From Escherichia coli (GTDB taxonomy: Bacteria; Pseudomonadota; Gammaproteobacteria; Enterobacterales; Enterobacteriaceae): a DNA stretch of 64,000 bases. The stretch is taken from the NCBI RefSeq assembly GCF_016026235.1, contig NZ_CP065613.1; one strand, written 5' to 3'. The number at the start of each line of letters is the position of its first letter. Within the stretch, counting starts at the first letter, position 1. Shown in pieces: positions 1 through 62,308 of the stretch. The position numbers were made by a program, and so were the translations under genes. The notes below the pieces were generated by a model. That model was not told the origin of the DNA. It did no database searches and saw only the letters and a list, made by a program, of their open reading frames with translations.

Positions 1-47
<47 letters not shown>

Positions 48-48
48 C

Positions 49-515
<467 letters not shown>

Positions 516-13905: not shown

Positions 13906-14019
13906 GGGGGCTCTGTTGGTTCTCCCGCAACGCTACTCTGTTTACCAGGTCAGGTCCGGAAGGAAGCAGCCAAGGCAGATGACGCGTGTGCCGGGATGTA
14001 GCTGGCAGGGCCCCCACCC
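13906..14019 (+). ncRNA. ffs: 4.5S RNA (signal recognition particle RNA)
   Basis: 114 nt GGGGGCUCUGUUGG...GGCAGGGCCCCCACCC read directly; matches the E. coli 4.5S RNA as I recall it. Confidence 0.93.
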
Positions 14020-29549: not shown

Positions 29550-31481
29550 ATGAGTTATCAGGTCTTAGCCCGAAAATGGCGCCCACAAACCTTTGCTGAC
29601 GTCGTCGGCCAGGAACATGTGCTGACCGCACTGGCGAACGGCTTGTCGTTAGGGCGTATTCATCATGCTTATCTTTTTTCCGGCACCCGTGGCGTCGGAA
29701 AAACCTCTATCGCCCGACTGCTGGCGAAGGGGCTAAACTGCGAAACCGGCATTACCGCGACGCCGTGCGGCGTGTGCGATAACTGTCGTGAAATCGAGCA
29801 GGGGCGCTTTGTCGATCTGATTGAAATCGACGCCGCCTCGCGCACCAAAGTTGAAGACACTCGCGACCTGCTGGATAACGTCCAGTACGCTCCGGCGCGT
29901 GGTCGTTTCAAAGTTTATCTGATCGACGAAGTGCATATGCTGTCGCGCCACAGCTTTAACGCATTGTTAAAAACCCTTGAAGAGCCGCCGGAGCACGTTA
30001 AGTTTCTGCTGGCGACGACCGATCCACAGAAATTGCCGGTGACGATTTTGTCACGCTGTCTGCAATTTCATCTCAAGGCGCTGGATGTCGAGCAAATTCG
30101 CCATCAGCTTGAGCACATCCTCAACGAAGAACATATCGCTCACGAGCCGCGGGCGTTGCAATTGCTGGCGCGCGCCGCTGAAGGCAGCCTGCGAGATGCC
30201 TTAAGTCTGACCGACCAGGCGATTGCCAGCGGTGACGGCCAGGTTTCAACCCAGGCGGTCAGTGCGATGCTGGGTACGCTTGACGACGATCAGGCGCTGT
30301 CGCTGGTTGAAGCGATGGTCGAGGCCAACGGCGAGCGCGTAATGGCGCTGATTAATGAAGCCGCTGCCCGTGGTATCGAGTGGGAAGCGTTGCTGGTGGA
30401 AATGCTCGGCCTGTTGCATCGTATTGCGATGGTACAACTTTCGCCTGCTGCACTTGGCAACGACATGGCCGCCATTGAGCTGCGGATGCGTGAACTGGCG
30501 CGCACCATACCGCCGACGGATATTCAGCTTTACTATCAGACGCTGTTGATTGGTCGCAAAGAATTACCGTATGCGCCGGACCGCCGCATGGGCGTTGAGA
30601 TGACGCTGCTGCGCGCGCTGGCGTTCCATCCACGTATGCCTCTGCCTGAGCCAGAAGTGCCACGCCAGTCCTTTGCGCCCGTCGCGCCAACGGCAGTAAT
30701 GACGCCAACCCAGGTGCCGCCGCAACCGCAATCAGCGCCGCAGCAGGCACCGACTGTACCGCTCCCGGAAACCACCAGCCAGGTGCTGGCGGCGCGCCAG
30801 CAGTTGCAGCGCGTGCAGGGAGCAACCAAAGCAAAAAAGAGTGAACCGGCAGCCGCTACCCGCGCGCGGCCGGTGAATAACGCTGCGCTGGAAAGACTGG
30901 CTTCGGTCACCGATCGCGTTCAGGCGCGTCCGGTGCCATCGGCGCTGGAAAAAGCGCCAGCCAAAAAAGAAGCGTATCGCTGGAAGGCTACCACTCCAGT
31001 GATGCAGCAAAAAGAAGTGGTCGCCACGCCGAAGGCGCTGAAAAAAGCGCTGGAACATGAAAAAACGCCGGAACTGGCGGCGAAGCTGGCGGCAGAAGCC
31101 ATTGAGCGCGACGCGTGGGCGGCACAGGTGAGTCAACTTTCGCTACCAAAACTGGTCGAACAGGTGGCCTTAAATGCCTGGAAAGAGGAGAGCGACAACG
31201 CAGTATGTCTGCATTTGCGCTCCTCTCAGCGGCATTTGAACAACCGCGGTGCACAGCAAAAACTGGCTGAAGCGTTGAGCATGTTAAAAGGTTCAACGGT
31301 TGAACTGACTATCGTTGAAGATGATAATCCCGCGGTGCGTACGCCGCTGGAGTGGCGTCAGGCGATATACGAAGAAAAACTTGCGCAGGCGCGCGAGTCC
31401 ATTATTGCGGATAATAATATTCAGACCCTGCGTCGGTTCTTCGATGCGGAGCTGGATGAAGAAAGTATCCGCCCCATTTGA
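29550..31481 (+). CDS. dnaX: DNA polymerase III subunits tau and gamma
   Basis: ORF track 643 aa; Walker A GTRGVGKTS. Confidence 0.97.
   Translation: MSYQVLARKWRPQTFADVVGQEHVLTALANGLSLGRIHHAYLFSGTRGVGKTSIARLLAKGLNCETGITATPCGVCDNCREIEQGRFVDLIEIDAASRTKVEDTRDLLDNVQYAPARGRFKVYLIDEVHMLSRHSFNALLKTLEEPPEHVKFLLATTDPQKLPVTILSRCLQFHLKALDVEQIRHQLEHILNEEHIAHEPRALQLLARAAEGSLRDALSLTDQAIASGDGQVSTQAVSAMLGTLDDDQALSLVEAMVEANGERVMALINEAAARGIEWEALLVEMLGLLHRIAMVQLSPAALGNDMAAIELRMRELARTIPPTDIQLYYQTLLIGRKELPYAPDRRMGVEMTLLRALAFHPRMPLPEPEVPRQSFAPVAPTAVMTPTQVPPQPQSAPQQAPTVPLPETTSQVLAARQQLQRVQGATKAKKSEPAAATRARPVNNAALERLASVTDRVQARPVPSALEKAPAKKEAYRWKATTPVMQQKEVVATPKALKKALEHEKTPELAAKLAAEAIERDAWAAQVSQLSLPKLVEQVALNAWKEESDNAVCLHLRSSQRHLNNRGAQQKLAEALSMLKGSTVELTIVEDDNPAVRTPLEWRQAIYEEKLAQARESIIADNNIQTLRRFFDAELDEESIRPI
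30833..30839 (+). other. dnaX: dnaX programmed -1 ribosomal frameshift heptamer A AAA AAG (yields gamma; -1 frame stops at TGA 30842-30844), followed by GC-rich stem-loop
   Basis: Slippery heptamer and downstream hairpin CCGGCAGCCGCTACCCGCGCGCGGCCGG read directly; mechanism is established for E. coli dnaX. Confidence 0.85.
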
Positions 31482-38900: not shown

Positions 38901-38985
38901 CGTAGGCCAGCTAAGGCGTTCACGCCGCATCTGGCATTTTGCTCTCAATGCCTGATGCGACGCTGGCGCGTCTTATCAGGCCTAC
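38901..38985. repeat. REP elements downstream of gsk
   Basis: GCCTGATGCGACGCTGGCGCGTCTTATCAGGCCTAC type palindromic units. Confidence 0.7.
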
Positions 38986-44659: not shown

Positions 44660-44743
44660 ACACCGTCGCTTAAAGTGACGGCATAATAATAAAAAAATGA
44701 AATTCCTCTTTGACGGGCCAATAGCGATATTGGCCATTTTTTT
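44660..44743 (+). ncRNA. chiX: ChiX (MicM/SroB) small RNA
   Basis: About 84 nt ACACCGUCGCUUAAAGUGACGGCAUAAUAAUAAAAAAAUGAAAUUCCUCUUUGACGGGCCAAUAGCGAUAUUGGCCAUUUUUUU in the ybaK-ybaP intergenic region, ending in a terminator hairpin plus U-tract; recognised from memory. Confidence 0.88.
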
Positions 44744-46037: not shown

Positions 46038-46275
<238 letters not shown>

Positions 46276-57875: not shown

Positions 57876-60286
57876 TTGCACGTTGGTTCTGGCGCGAATG
57901 GCGTTCGCCGTCGCTATTAATTGTCTGGCTGGCGCTAAGCCTGGCGGTGGCCTGCGTGCTGGCGCTGGGCAATATCAGCGATCGCATGGAGAAGGGCTTA
58001 AGCCAGCAAAGCCGTGAGTTTATGGCGGGCGATCGGGCGCTGCGCAGTTCGCGCGAAGTGCCGCAAGCGTGGCTGGAGGAAGCGCAAAAGCGCGGCCTGA
58101 AAGTCGGCAAGCAGCTGACTTTCGCCACCATGACATTTGCAGGCGACACACCGCAGCTGGCGAACGTTAAAGCGGTGGATGATATCTACCCGATGTATGG
58201 CGATCTGCAAACCAATCCCCCTGGCCTGAAACCGCAGGCGGGCAGCGTATTGCTGGCCCCACGCCTGATGGCACTGCTTAACCTGAAAACGGGCGACACC
58301 ATTGACGTGGGCGATGCCACCTTGCGGATTGCCGGAGAAGTGATTCAGGAACCGGATTCCGGTTTTAACCCCTTCCAGATGGCTCCGCGTCTGATGATGA
58401 ATCTGGCGGATGTCGATAAAACCGGAGCCGTGCAGCCGGGGAGTCGGGTCACCTGGCGCTATAAATTCGGCGGCAGCGAGAACCAGCTCGACAGCTATGA
58501 GAAATGGTTGTTACCTCAGCTTAAACCCGAACAACGCTGGTACGGTCTGGAACAGGACGAAGGCGCGCTGGGGCGATCGATGGAACGCTCGCAACAGTTC
58601 CTGCTGCTTTCGGCGCTTCTGACCTTGCTGCTGGCAGTGGCAGCGGTGGCGGTAGCGATGAATCATTACTGTCGCAGTCGCTACGATCTGGTGGCGATCC
58701 TCAAAACACTGGGGGCAGGGCGAGCGCAACTGCGTAAGCTAATCGTCGGTCAGTGGTTGATGGTGCTGACGCTTTCAGCCGTTACCGGTGGGGCGATAGG
58801 CCTGTTGTTCGAAAACGTGTTGATGGTGCTGCTCAAGCCCGTTCTGCCTGCTGCACTACCGCCAGCCAGCCTCTGGCCGTGGCTGTGGGCGCTTGGCACC
58901 ATGACGGTCATCTCGCTGCTGGTGGGGCTACGACCATACCGCTTGTTGCTGGCAACGCAGCCTTTACGCGTATTACGTAATGATGTGGTAGCGAACGTCT
59001 GGCCGCTGAAGTTTTATCTGCCGATTGTCAGTGTGGTGGTTGTGCTGCTGCTCGCCGGATTAATGGGTGGCAGCATGCTGCTTTGGGCGGTGCTGGCGGG
59101 CGCGGTAGTACTGGCTTTGCTGTGCGGTGTGCTGGGCTGGATGCAGCTGAATGTACTTCGCCGCATGACGCTGAAATCGCTACCTCTGCGCCTGGCGGTT
59201 AGCCGCCTGTTACGTCAGCCGTGGTCAACGTTAAGCCAGCTTTCGGCATTTTCGCTCTCCTTTATGCTGCTGGCGCTGTTGCTGGTATTGCGTGGCGATC
59301 TGCTCGACCGCTGGCAGCAGCAGCTACCGCCAGAAAGCCCGAACTACTTTTTAATTAACATCGCCACAGAACAGGTAGCACCGCTAAAAGCGTTCCTCGC
59401 GGAACATCATATAGTCCCGGAATCGTTTTATCCGGTGGTGCGGGCGAGACTGACGGCGATTAACGGCAAGCCGACAGAAGGCAATGAAGATGAGGCGCTC
59501 AATCGCGAACTCAATCTTACCTGGCAAAATACGCGGCCCGATCATAATCCGATTGTCGCCGGTAACTGGCCGCCAAAAGCCGATGAAGTATCGATGGAAG
59601 AGGGGCTGGCGAAACGCTTAAACGTTGCCCTCGGTGATACCGTGACTTTTATGGGCGATACCCAGGAGTTCCGCGCTAAAGTGACCAGCCTGCGCAAAGT
59701 GGACTGGGAAAGTCTGCGGCCTAATTTCTATTTTATTTTCCCTGAAGGGGCATTAGACGGGCAACCGCAGAGCTGGCTTACCAGTTTCCGCTGGGAGAAT
59801 GGCAACGGCATGTTGACGCAACTCAACCGCCAGTTCCCGACCATTAGCCTGTTAGACATTGGCGCGATTTTAAAACAGGTCGGCCAGGTGCTGGAGCAGG
59901 TAAGTCGGGCGCTGGAGGTGATGGTGGTGCTGGTCACCGCCTGCGGTATGTTGCTGTTGCTGGCACAGGTGCAGGTGGGAATGCGTCAGCGTCATCAGGA
60001 GCTGGTGGTGTGGCGCACACTCGGTGCGGGGAAAAAACTGCTGCGTACCACGTTGTGGTGTGAGTTCGCCATGCTTGGGTTTGTTTCTGGCCTGGTGGCC
60101 GCAATTGGTGCGGAAACGGCACTGGCAGTGTTGCAGGCGAAAGTGTTTGATTTTCCGTGGGAGCCAGACTGGCGATTGTGGATTGTTCTGCCGTGCAGCG
60201 GTGCGCTGCTGCTGTCGCTTTTCGGCGGCTGGCTGGGCGCGAGACTGGTTAAGGGTAAGGCGCTGTTCAGGCAGTTTGCGGGGTGA
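57872..60286 (+). CDS. ybbP: ABC transporter permease YbbP (FtsX-like, duplicated)
   Basis: ORF track 804 aa; overlaps ybbA stop. Confidence 0.92.
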   Translation: MIARWFWREWRSPSLLIVWLALSLAVACVLALGNISDRMEKGLSQQSREFMAGDRALRSSREVPQAWLEEAQKRGLKVGKQLTFATMTFAGDTPQLANVKAVDDIYPMYGDLQTNPPGLKPQAGSVLLAPRLMALLNLKTGDTIDVGDATLRIAGEVIQEPDSGFNPFQMAPRLMMNLADVDKTGAVQPGSRVTWRYKFGGSENQLDSYEKWLLPQLKPEQRWYGLEQDEGALGRSMERSQQFLLLSALLTLLLAVAAVAVAMNHYCRSRYDLVAILKTLGAGRAQLRKLIVGQWLMVLTLSAVTGGAIGLLFENVLMVLLKPVLPAALPPASLWPWLWALGTMTVISLLVGLRPYRLLLATQPLRVLRNDVVANVWPLKFYLPIVSVVVVLLLAGLMGGSMLLWAVLAGAVVLALLCGVLGWMQLNVLRRMTLKSLPLRLAVSRLLRQPWSTLSQLSAFSLSFMLLALLLVLRGDLLDRWQQQLPPESPNYFLINIATEQVAPLKAFLAEHHIVPESFYPVVRARLTAINGKPTEGNEDEALNRELNLTWQNTRPDHNPIVAGNWPPKADEVSMEEGLAKRLNVALGDTVTFMGDTQEFRAKVTSLRKVDWESLRPNFYFIFPEGALDGQPQSWLTSFRWENGNGMLTQLNRQFPTISLLDIGAILKQVGQVLEQVSRALEVMVVLVTACGMLLLLAQVQVGMRQRHQELVVWRTLGAGKKLLRTTLWCEFAMLGFVSGLVAAIGAETALAVLQAKVFDFPWEPDWRLWIVLPCSGALLLSLFGGWLGARLVKGKALFRQFAG

Positions 60287-60302
60287 TGACTGGTGTTAGA
60301 TT

Positions 60303-60602
<300 letters not shown>

Positions 60603-60703
60603 TGAACAGTGTGCATTTTGGCAATAAATCTGAAACCAACTGTCATGTCGGTTTTTTAAAGGCCGAAGGTGGTAAACCTTCGGCCTTAGCTACGTTTCCT
60701 CAG

Positions 60704-60787
60704 TTATTCAATAAACTGACGGATCAGTTCCAGCAGCGCGATTAGCGCCTTAAGCACGATGAGAACTTTATCGAGAAAAGTTTTCAT
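60704..60787 (-). CDS. candidate type I toxin: 27 aa hydrophobic/amphipathic peptide MKTFLDKVLIVLKALIALLELIRQFIE (DinQ/TisB-like)
   Basis: Hand-translated ORF with strong SD AAGGGAG 6 nt upstream of ATG, SD embedded in perfect palindrome CTCCCTTAAGGGAG; central ALIALLELIR segment resembles DinQ as I recall it; not in the ORF track (under 60 aa). Confidence 0.45.
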   Translation of the reverse strand: MKTFLDKVLIVLKALIALLELIRQFIE

Positions 60788-61046
60788 CCGTTGCTCCCTT
60801 AAGGGAGAAAGACAATCACAGCTTACCCTTACGTTGCCTGTAACTATGATTTTCTTCATGTGCTAGATGAGGACTGCCTCTCTCCAAATTAGAGCACCAG
60901 AATCAGCACCACCTGTATCCTGACCAGGACTTAAAAGTACTTTTCCGCACTGCGGTAATCCCTTGAGGCAGTATCACTACTAGCGTCGGGATTGTATCGC
61001 CAACATAGCTGTTTGAATATGTAGGCATCCTGACTTATAATTCACT

Positions 61047-61137
61047 TGCTAGATGAGGACTGTTTCATTTCTGCCCGGAACCACCAAGTCTTGGGCGGAA
61101 AAAATAAAAAAACCGACTGTCATGTCGGTTTTTTTAT
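61047..61137 (+). ncRNA. candidate antitoxin sRNA (about 90 nt), divergent from the toxin ORF; its 5' end carries a 16 nt box identical to 60861-60876 and hence complementary to the minus-strand toxin leader
   Basis: Near-consensus sigma70 promoter TTGAAT (61013-18), 17 nt spacer, TATAAT (61036-41); transcript would start about 61044-61048 and end at hairpin AACCGAC-TGTCAT-GTCGGTT plus 7 T (61111-61137). Confidence 0.45.
61111..61137. terminator. bidirectional Rho-independent terminator (A-tract, hairpin, T-tract) shared by selU (minus) and the candidate sRNA (plus)
   Basis: AAAAAAACCGAC TGTCAT GTCGGTTTTTTT read directly. Confidence 0.75.
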
Positions 61138-61198
61138 ATCTGTATTCTGGTGCAACCATTCTGTTCTCACGACAATCGCCGTTTCAGAATACCGCCCA

Positions 61199-62308
<1,110 letters not shown>

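What the first reader, a model, noticed from the sequence alone, without database searches (positions are those of the whole stretch)
61013..61041. Near-consensus orphan sigma70 promoter driving a short terminator-bounded transcript
TTGAAT, a 17 nt spacer, then perfect TATAAT, followed about 70-95 nt downstream by a strong intrinsic terminator. No protein-coding potential with an SD exists in the transcript. This is a strong sRNA gene signature independent of the toxin hypothesis.
Basis: seen in the sequence. Interest (0 to 1): 0.45.

Follow-up and report, generated by a model that had tools for sequence, protein, structure and literature searches.

The report
AgrB-type antitoxin RNA of a DinQ-like toxin
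The promoter and terminator do bracket a real small-RNA gene of about 88 nt, but it is an ordinary member of the known AgrB family and is the antisense antidote to the DinQ-like membrane toxin gene next to it.

Summary
TTGAAT-17-TATAAT lies at 61013-61041 (+), a strong terminator at 61104-61137, and the RNA between them has no credible ORF. The promoter match alone is not above chance (6 such sites in the window, 7.6±2.4 in shuffles).

The RNA (about 61048-61136) matches Rfam AgrB (RF02891) at 53.6 bits, above the gathering score of 40. It aligns end to end with E. coli K-12 agrA/agrB, including the -35, the -10 and the mapped start. It is transcribed divergently from a 27-aa DinQ-family toxin gene (60704-60787, minus strand; NCBIfam toxin_DinQ above cutoff).

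Its first 24 nt pair with nt 100-123 of the predicted toxin mRNA 5'UTR (window 60862-60885). Across 11 DinQ/Dql-AgrB loci this intermolecular helix covaries: 96.8% of cells paired, 15 of 23 pairs compensatory, 0 of 500 shuffles as good. Cognate pairs are always the strongest.

So "sRNA gene" is right, but "orphan" and "independent of the toxin" are wrong. The toxin and RNA form a roughly 570-bp accessory cassette between ybbP and mnmH. About 24% of complete E. coli genomes carry it, in addition to the near-universal dinQ-agrAB. Unlike dinQ, it has no LexA box. The family is published (2013, 2016, 2021, 2025), so interest is low.

The parts
61013..61018 (+). sRNA promoter -35 hexamer, TTGAAT
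   Evidence: Aligns with the TTGCAA -35 of K-12 agrA/agrB.
61036..61041 (+). sRNA promoter -10 hexamer, TATAAT
   Evidence: Aligns with the TAGCAT/TAGTAT -10 of agrA/agrB.
61048..61136 (+). AgrB-family antitoxin sRNA, about 88 nt. The start at 61048 or 61049 is predicted by homology; the 3' end lies in the U-run.
   Evidence: Rfam RF02891 AgrB at 61049-61137, 53.6 bits against a gathering score of 40, E 6e-8 local and 3e-6 for the whole window. Fold z = -5.65. Conserved architecture with covarying stems in 10 homologs.
61048..61071 (+). 5' targeting region of the sRNA, antisense to the toxin mRNA
   Evidence: 15 contiguous Watson-Crick pairs, then 9 more positions (4 G-U, 1 mismatch). Duplex -55.5 kcal/mol against -26.1±3.2 for shuffles. 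Direct repeat D4.
61070..61099 (+). Stem-loop 1 of the sRNA, with the conserved CCACCAA loop
   Evidence: Compensatory changes relative to K-12 AgrB.
61104..61137 (+). Intrinsic terminator of the sRNA. It is symmetric (A-run / U-run), so it probably also terminates the convergent mnmH gene.
   Evidence: One search lists it on both strands; inverted repeat I5. The mnmH stop codon is at 61199.
60862..60885 (-). sRNA target site in the toxin mRNA 5'UTR (predicted mRNA nt 100-123; equivalent to 'sequence 2' of dinQ)
   Evidence: Intermolecular covariation over 11 loci. The homologous dinQ site, G88-A119, is described in PMC5066626.
60991..60996 (-). Predicted -10 (TACAAT) of the toxin promoter. 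The predicted +1 is 60984, 64-65 nt from the sRNA start and divergent from it.
   Evidence: Aligns with the dinQ -10 TATGAT. Inference by homology. No LexA box is present here.
60965..60984 (-). 5' end of the toxin mRNA ('sequence 1'). It resembles the sRNA 5' end and pairs with the target site in the full-length mRNA.
   Evidence: MFE fold of nt +1..230; coordinates.
60794..60817 (-). 'Sequences 3 and 4': GAUUGUCUUUCUCC and the hairpin CUCCC-UUAA-GGGAG that encloses the Shine-Dalgarno sequence
   Evidence: the hairpin is closed in the +1 form, and 2:3 pairing replaces it in 5'-truncated forms. Coordinates.
60704..60787 (-). DinQ-family type I toxin ORF, 27 aa, MKTFLDKVLIVLKALIALLELIRQFIE. RefSeq annotates a 51-aa version at 60704-60859.
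   Evidence: NCBIfam NF041472 toxin_DinQ, 40.9 bits against a cutoff of 30. RefSeq annotation 'dinQ'. 17 of 27 residues identical to K-12 DinQ and 22 of 27 to a Serratia homolog.
60633..60687 (-). Toxin mRNA 3' hairpins: a GC-rich hairpin at 60659-60687, and a second at 60633-60654 that is a 96% copy of the sRNA terminator
   Evidence: (I7, D3).
60616..61186 (.). Approximate extent of the toxin-antitoxin cassette, present or absent as a unit between ybbP and mnmH
   Evidence: Alignment with an 'empty' site in strain UPEC-455U.

Best explanation
The promoter at 61013-61041 drives an AgrB-family antisense RNA of about 88 nt. This RNA is the antitoxin of a type I toxin-antitoxin cassette. The toxin partner is the divergently transcribed DinQ-like 27-aa membrane peptide gene at 60704-60787 on the minus strand. 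The proposed mechanism is as follows. (1) The single-stranded 5' end of the sRNA (about 24 nt) base-pairs with nt 100-123 of the toxin mRNA 5'UTR, about 75 nt upstream of the start codon. (2) This sequesters 'sequence 2', so 'sequence 3' is free to close the CUCCC-UUAA-GGGAG hairpin over the Shine-Dalgarno sequence, and translation stays off. (3) The duplex is probably also cut by RNase III. (4) In the full-length mRNA the same site is occupied by the mRNA's own 5' end, which keeps the primary transcript inert until it is processed at the 5' end. Shown here: family membership, gene arrangement, complementarity, its covariation across loci, and predicted folds consistent with the switch. Inferred from dinQ/agrB and dqlB/agrB experiments: expression, toxicity, translational repression and RNase III cleavage.
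For: Family membership: Rfam AgrB hit above the gathering score, and end-to-end alignment with K-12 agrA/agrB including promoter elements. Toxin identity: the adjacent ORF passes the NCBIfam toxin_DinQ cutoff and is annotated dinQ in RefSeq, and the toxin locus aligns with K-12 dinQ from the -10 to the terminator. Complementarity: the cognate duplex is -55.5 kcal/mol against -26.1±3.2 for shuffled sRNA 5' ends. Recurrence: all ten other DinQ/Dql loci examined (Escherichia, Citrobacter, Serratia, five plasmid types) have a divergent AgrB-family sRNA whose variable 5' end matches its own toxin mRNA. Covariation: 96.8% of cells paired, 15 of 23 pairs with compensatory change, 0 of 500 shuffles reaching this, and about 43% paired when slid. 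Specificity: the cross-pairing matrix is diagonal-dominant, with the window cognate pair at -34.0 and K-12 AgrB on the window target at -19.2. mRNA switch: MFE folds reproduce the published 1:2 / 2:3 / 3:4 pairings (PMC5066626). Experimental precedent: AgrB represses dinQ by pairing and RNase III cleavage (PMC3567139, PMC5066626), and plasmid agrB neutralises DqlB with compensatory-mutation proof (PMC12365149).
Against: There is no expression data for this locus, and both transcription starts are placed by homology only. Complementarity is shorter and more wobble-rich than in most relatives: 15 perfect pairs plus 9 with 4 G-U and 1 mismatch, against 30-34 nearly perfect elsewhere. In the 5'-truncated MFE folds the Shine-Dalgarno sequence still pairs with an upstream GCUCU, so the 'open' state is not clearly predicted. 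Target sites in the comparative set were located by best duplex, which biases the counts slightly towards pairing, although all sites fall at the homologous position. In 192 carrier genomes the toxin start and half of the target are deleted while the sRNA stays intact, so the sRNA can persist without a functional partner.
Confidence: 0.88

Rival explanations
1. A degenerate, AgrA-like paralog. The RNA is made but no longer neutralises its neighbouring toxin, as reported for K-12 AgrA, which has 25 of 31 complementarity and does not counteract DinQ.
For: Its pairing with the target is weaker than in most other cognate pairs (-46 against -50 to -67 kcal/mol). There are 4 G-U pairs and a mismatch beyond nt 15. 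The toxin is deleted in 192 genomes without loss of the sRNA.
Against: Unlike AgrA, whose match is interrupted at nt 9, 11 and 14, this RNA has an uninterrupted 14-15 nt Watson-Crick seed from its 5' end, and only one mismatch within nt 1-23, the last in-register position (nt 24) also being unpaired. It is the only agr copy in the cassette, and it is the best partner of its target among 12 sRNAs tested. About 86% of carriers keep an intact toxin ORF at 99% identity or more; an intact toxin without a working antitoxin would be expected to be counter-selected.
Confidence: 0.06
2. An independent ('orphan') trans-acting regulatory sRNA whose main targets lie elsewhere.
For: It has its own promoter and terminator. 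It is retained in toxin-deleted strains. It has moderate predicted pairing with other dinQ alleles and an IncI dqlB target, -28 to -31 kcal/mol.
Against: It belongs to the AgrB family. It always travels with the toxin as one roughly 570-bp cassette. Its variable 5' end covaries with the adjacent toxin mRNA across 11 loci. No other target was sought or found here.
Confidence: 0.04
3. No sRNA at all: the promoter match is a chance hit and the hairpin is only the terminator of the convergent mnmH gene.
For: Promoter-like sites of this quality are as common in shuffled sequence. The terminator is symmetric and lies 62 nt past the mnmH stop codon.
Against: The whole segment from the -35 to the U-run is homologous to agrA/agrB, which have been shown to be expressed (PMC3567139). 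A covariance model that scores the stem-loops and the 5' region passes its threshold. Strains without the cassette lack this terminator too.
Confidence: 0.02

Closest known systems
AgrB / AgrA sRNAs of the E. coli K-12 dinQ-agrAB locus (Rfam RF02891; Weel-Sneve 2013, Kristiansen 2016)
   Same: Same family by covariance model. Same length of about 85 nt. Same layout: single-stranded 5' targeting region, stem-loop with CCACCAA loop, A-rich linker, terminator. Same divergent, non-overlapping position upstream of a DinQ-family toxin. The target lies at the equivalent place in the 5'UTR (nt 100-123 here, 88-119 in dinQ). The same four-element mRNA switch is predicted.
   Different: One agr copy rather than two. 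The targeting sequence differs at several positions with matching changes in the target, so K-12 AgrB is predicted not to pair with this mRNA (-19.2 against -34.0). Complementarity is shorter. The toxin promoter has no LexA box, so SOS control is unlikely. The location is ybbP-mnmH, not gor-arsR. It is accessory, in about 24% of genomes against more than 99% for dinQ-agrAB.
dql (dinQ-like) loci of Enterobacteriaceae, including the plasmid dqlB-agrB addiction module of pOXA-48 (Kristiansen 2016; T1TAdb 2021; PMC12365149)
   Same: A DinQ-like toxin with a conserved 5'UTR, paired with a divergent AgrB-type RNA. The plasmid AgrB homologs score 50-63 bits on the same Rfam model, the same range as this one. 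Antitoxin function by base pairing was proven for dqlB-agrB.
   Different: The toxin here passes the DinQ model, not the DqlB model (24.5 bits against a cutoff of 35), and lacks the 4-residue insertion of DqlB. It is chromosomal, not plasmid-borne. Whether it is one of the 14 dql loci listed in 2016 (probably the 'dqlA' class) could not be checked, because the figure and supplement are not held.
IstR-1/tisB, OhsC/shoB and OrzO/zorO type I systems
   Same: A divergent, trans-encoded short antisense RNA pairs far upstream of the ribosome-binding site in a long, structured, processed 5'UTR of a small hydrophobic toxin mRNA (as stated in PMC5066626).
   Different: No sequence or model match. The OrzO-P model scores 24 bits against a gathering score of 60, and only on the terminator. 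tisB uses a ribosome standby site rather than the 2:3 / 3:4 hairpin switch.

Membership tests
AgrB antitoxin sRNA family (Rfam RF02891) | Covariance-model score at or above the family's gathering score | tested here: met
   53.6 bits against 40, over the full model 1-84, at window 61049-61137 (+).
AgrB antitoxin sRNA family (Rfam RF02891) | Encoded divergently from, and not overlapping, a DinQ-family toxin gene | tested here: met
   The toxin ORF is at 60704-60787 (-). The predicted mRNA start at 60984 is 64-65 nt from the sRNA start.
AgrB antitoxin sRNA family (Rfam RF02891) | The sRNA 5' end is complementary to the toxin mRNA 5'UTR upstream of the ribosome-binding site | tested here: met
   24-nt duplex, 15 of them perfect, at mRNA nt 100-123. 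Far stronger than shuffles. Covaries across 11 loci.
AgrB antitoxin sRNA family (Rfam RF02891) | Own sigma-70 promoter and Rho-independent terminator giving an RNA of about 80-90 nt | tested here: met
   (sequence level only).
AgrB antitoxin sRNA family (Rfam RF02891) | The RNA is expressed and represses toxin translation and toxicity; the duplex is cut by RNase III | not testable with these tools
   Shown only for K-12 agrB (PMC3567139, PMC5066626) and pOXA-48 agrB (PMC12365149).
DinQ proper (SOS-inducible dinQ gene) | Peptide matches the DinQ model | tested here: met
   NF041472, 40.9 bits against a cutoff of 30.
DinQ proper (SOS-inducible dinQ gene) | LexA operator in the promoter (damage-inducible) | tested here: not met
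   No CTG-N10-CAG motif in 60600-61200. The best 20-mer has 5 of 6 core and 11 of 20 total matches, against 6 of 6 and 15 of 20 at K-12 dinQ. It is therefore a dinQ-like paralog, not the SOS gene.
DinQ proper (SOS-inducible dinQ gene) | Located between gor and arsR | tested here: not met
   It lies between ybbP and mnmH. The canonical locus is present elsewhere in 5422 of 5426 genomes.
DqlB (plasmid DinQ-like toxin B) | Peptide matches the DqlB model | tested here: not met
   NF041473, 24.5 bits against a cutoff of 35.
Type I toxin-antitoxin system | Small hydrophobic toxic peptide plus an antisense RNA that blocks its synthesis | tested here: inconclusive
   The gene pair, hydrophobic peptide and complementarity are present. 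Toxicity and rescue were not tested.

The most novel reading that the evidence does not exclude
The sRNA may do more than silence its own neighbour. It is kept intact in 192 genomes where the toxin start and half the target are deleted. It also has moderate predicted pairing, largely through G-U wobbles, with some canonical dinQ alleles (-28 to -31 kcal/mol) and with an IncI dqlB target (-27.6). It could therefore act as a chromosomal 'anti-addiction' or cross-protecting antitoxin against related plasmid or chromosomal DinQ-like toxins. Its own toxin may be an SOS-independent DinQ paralog under a different, unknown signal.
Probability: 0.1. Interest if true: 0.45.

Novelty: already known. Interest (0 to 1): 0.15.

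Why it matters
The practical value is for annotation. RefSeq records mark only an over-long 51-aa 'damage-inducible DinQ' CDS here and no ncRNA. The locus is in fact a complete second DinQ/AgrB-type toxin-antitoxin cassette, carried by about a quarter of E. coli genomes, apparently without SOS control, and predicted not to be silenced by the canonical AgrB, although its own sRNA shows moderate predicted pairing with some dinQ alleles. It adds nothing new in principle to the DinQ/AgrB and dql literature.

Tried and rejected
1. LexA control of the toxin promoter: no operator found.
2. A third chromosomal paralog suggested by 70%-identity hits (H36-H39): these are just the canonical gor-dinQ locus with a longer BLAST alignment.
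3. Coding potential of the sRNA: rejected.
4. Promoter significance on its own: not above chance.
5. The genome contigs pattern scan returned four false hits, which are tRNA 3' ends followed by similar terminators (L009, L015, L016, L021). It also returned three E. coli-like contaminant contigs filed under other taxa (L007, L008, L011). All were discarded.
6. Whether this exact locus is listed in Kristiansen 2016 or T1TAdb: the supplements are not held. Full-text searches for the peptide sequence and the RefSeq protein accession found nothing relevant.
7. A first whole-length RNAduplex run over-extended the duplex. It was replaced by analyses restricted to the sRNA 5' end.
8. The other Rfam near-hits on the terminator (OrzO-P, STnc370, RNAI and others) are all far below threshold.

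Full report
**Observation.** The + strand carries TTGAAT (61013-61018), a 17-nt spacer and a perfect TATAAT (61036-61041), 10 of 12 consensus matches. A 14-bp hairpin followed by seven T lies at 61104-61137. The RNA between them (about 61048-61136) folds at -34.6 kcal/mol, z = -5.65 against dinucleotide shuffles. It has no plausible ORF: the only early ATG (61053) is 5 nt from the predicted 5' end, lacks a Shine-Dalgarno sequence, and has no stop codon before the terminator. The description is therefore accurate. The promoter match alone is not evidence, however. Sites of this quality occur 6 times in the window against 7.6±2.4 in shuffles.

**Identity.** A scan of Rfam 15 places the AgrB family (RF02891) at 61049-61137 (+). 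It scores 53.6 bits against a gathering score of 40, both in a local permissive scan and in a default scan of the whole window.
- The segment aligns end to end with K-12 agrA and agrB, fetched from NC_000913.3. The alignment includes the -35, the -10, the annotated 5' end, the CCACCAA-loop stem (with compensatory changes) and the terminator.
- Upstream and divergent lies a small ORF on the minus strand. Its 27-aa product, MKTFLDKVLIVLKALIALLELIRQFIE (60704-60787), passes the NCBIfam toxin_DinQ cutoff (40.9 against 30) but not the DqlB cutoff (24.5 against 35). It has no Pfam match.
- RefSeq annotates a 51-aa version as 'dinQ' in about 1,330 genomes and annotates no ncRNA.
- The whole toxin locus aligns with K-12 dinQ from the -10 to the terminator. 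This places the toxin -10 (TACAAT) at 60996-60991 and the mRNA start at about 60984.

**Link between the two genes.**
- The first 24 nt of the sRNA (61048-61071) are antisense to mRNA nt 100-123 (window 60862-60885). There are 15 contiguous Watson-Crick pairs, then 9 positions with four G-U pairs and one mismatch. The duplex energy is -55.5 kcal/mol against -26.1±3.2 for shuffled 5' ends.
- I collected related loci from three sources: a pattern scan of one genome per species, the plasmid collection, and K-12.
- Every DinQ/Dql toxin gene examined has a divergent AgrB-family RNA. The five genome and six plasmid loci scanned scored 50-108 bits; the Citrobacter and E1V33 copies were recognised from the pattern match and alignment. 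The hosts are E. albertii, Citrobacter, Serratia, Escherichia sp. E1V33, and IncX1, IncX7, IncI and IncFIB plasmids, pSGI4 and an Enterobacter plasmid. In each, the variable 5' end matches its own toxin mRNA.
- On a gapless alignment of target plus sRNA 5' end from 11 loci, the intermolecular helix is 96.8% paired. Fifteen of 23 pairs show compensatory changes. No shuffle of 500 reaches this, and slid registers give about 43% pairing.
- A 12 x 11 cross-pairing matrix is diagonal-dominant. The window pair scores -34.0. K-12 AgrB on the window target scores -19.2. The window sRNA scores -28.1 on K-12 dinQ.

**Mechanism.** Minimum-energy folds of the predicted toxin mRNA reproduce the model published for dinQ (PMC5066626).
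- In the full-length form, the 5' end (nt 1-20, itself similar to the sRNA 5' end) pairs with nt 103-123, and the hairpin CUCCC-UUAA-GGGAG closes over the Shine-Dalgarno sequence.
- In 5'-truncated forms, nt 100-113 pair with nt 168-181 instead.
- sRNA binding to nt 100-123 would restore the closed hairpin, as shown experimentally for agrB on +44 dinQ, where RNase III also cuts the duplex (PMC5066626). AgrB counteracts DinQ toxicity in vivo (PMC3567139). Plasmid agrB neutralises DqlB through base pairing, proven with compensatory mutants (PMC12365149).
- For the window locus these steps are inference by homology. The 'open' state is not cleanly predicted by MFE folding.

**Differences from canonical dinQ-agrAB.**
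- There is one agr copy, not two.
- The toxin promoter has no LexA box: no CTG-N10-CAG in the locus, and the best 20-mer scores 11 of 20 against 15 of 20 in K-12.
- Complementarity is shorter and richer in wobble pairs.
- The location is different and accessory. The toxin and sRNA form a roughly 570-bp cassette (about 60616-61186) that is absent from an otherwise collinear ybbP-mnmH spacer in strain UPEC-455U. The same spacer holds an Rhs element in K-12 and O157:H7, and T6SS-associated genes in strain E41-1.
- The cassette is present at 95% identity or more in about 1,325 of 5,426 complete genomes. Canonical dinQ-agrAB is in 5,422, so this is an extra copy. Its toxin is closest to a Serratia homolog, 22 of 27 identical, against 17 of 27 for DinQ.

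**Comparison with the literature.** Kristiansen et al. 2016 defined the dql (dinQ-like) genes in chromosomes and plasmids of Enterobacteriaceae. They noted that some strains carry them alongside dinQ and that databases annotate over-long N-termini. T1TAdb later predicted the matching asRNAs. I could not check whether this exact locus is on their lists, and no paper mentioning the peptide was found. Either way, a standard Rfam scan identifies the RNA, and the family, arrangement and mechanism are published.

**Verdict.** The finding is real but ordinary. It is a known kind of antitoxin sRNA, not an orphan. Interest is low.

Noticed in passing
window 60765-60872 (equivalent); L005 (E. coli EC488): 192 of about 1,317 carrier genomes, including ST648-type strains, have a 108-bp deletion between GATGAG(A/G)AC microhomologies. 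It removes the toxin start codon, the Shine-Dalgarno hairpin and the half of the target that pairs with the sRNA 5' seed. The sRNA gene and its promoter stay intact, leaving an 'orphaned' antitoxin.
   Followed up: partly
window 60286-61199 (ybbP-mnmH spacer); L003, L028, L029, L030: This intergenic spacer is a variable hot spot. It is empty in UPEC-455U, holds the DinQ-like cassette here, an Rhs element in K-12 and O157:H7, and T6SS tssD/DUF2931 genes in E41-1.
   Followed up: partly
window 60633-60657 and 61110-61134: A 25-nt direct repeat (96% identical). A slightly defective copy of the sRNA terminator sits just beyond the toxin gene's own GC-rich hairpin, so near-identical terminator sequences lie near both ends of the cassette. 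Its origin (duplication or insertion scar) is unexplained.
   Followed up: no
window 60704-60859 (-): The RefSeq/PGAP CDS 'damage-inducible type I toxin DinQ' (51 aa) is probably over-long. The upstream ATG at 60859 abuts the sRNA target and has no Shine-Dalgarno sequence, whereas the internal ATG at 60787 has GGGAG 6 nt upstream and matches the 27-aa DinQ. The label 'damage-inducible' is doubtful, since no LexA box is present.
   Followed up: partly
window 61012-61018: The sRNA -35 (TTGAAT, + strand) overlaps the best candidate -35 of the divergent toxin promoter (TTCAAA on the - strand, 15-nt spacer to TACAAT). The two promoters are back to back with starts only about 65 nt apart, so they may compete for RNA polymerase.
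   Followed up: no
L013 (E. coli E69), L012, L006 (E. albertii) compared with L002 (K-12): Canonical dinQ has at least two target alleles. In E69, L012 and E. albertii, the dinQ target (GAUAGUCGUCAUCUAA) is matched almost perfectly by the sRNA in the agrA position. K-12 AgrA pairs far better with that allele (-39.6) than with K-12 dinQ (-27.4). The 'non-functional' AgrA of K-12 may be the active antitoxin in other lineages.
   Followed up: partly
window 60300-60610: A cluster of REP/BIME-type repeats lies downstream of ybbP: two full naRNA4 (RF02564) matches at 60370-60447 and 60470-60548, a partial third copy, and ES036 at 60324-60366 (-). They form 100-nt tandem units.
   Followed up: no
window 13914-14010, 30814-30878, 44660-44743, 38905-38982, 46041-46219: Other Rfam hits above threshold in the window: SRP RNA (ffs), the dnaX frameshift element, sroB, and three further naRNA4/REP copies. 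These are the expected E. coli features.
   Followed up: no
L007 (Acinetobacter haemolyticus contig, 424 bp), L008, L011 (MAG contigs): Short contigs filed under non-enterobacterial taxa carry near-identical E. coli agrA/agrB sequence. This is most likely contamination in those assemblies.
   Followed up: no
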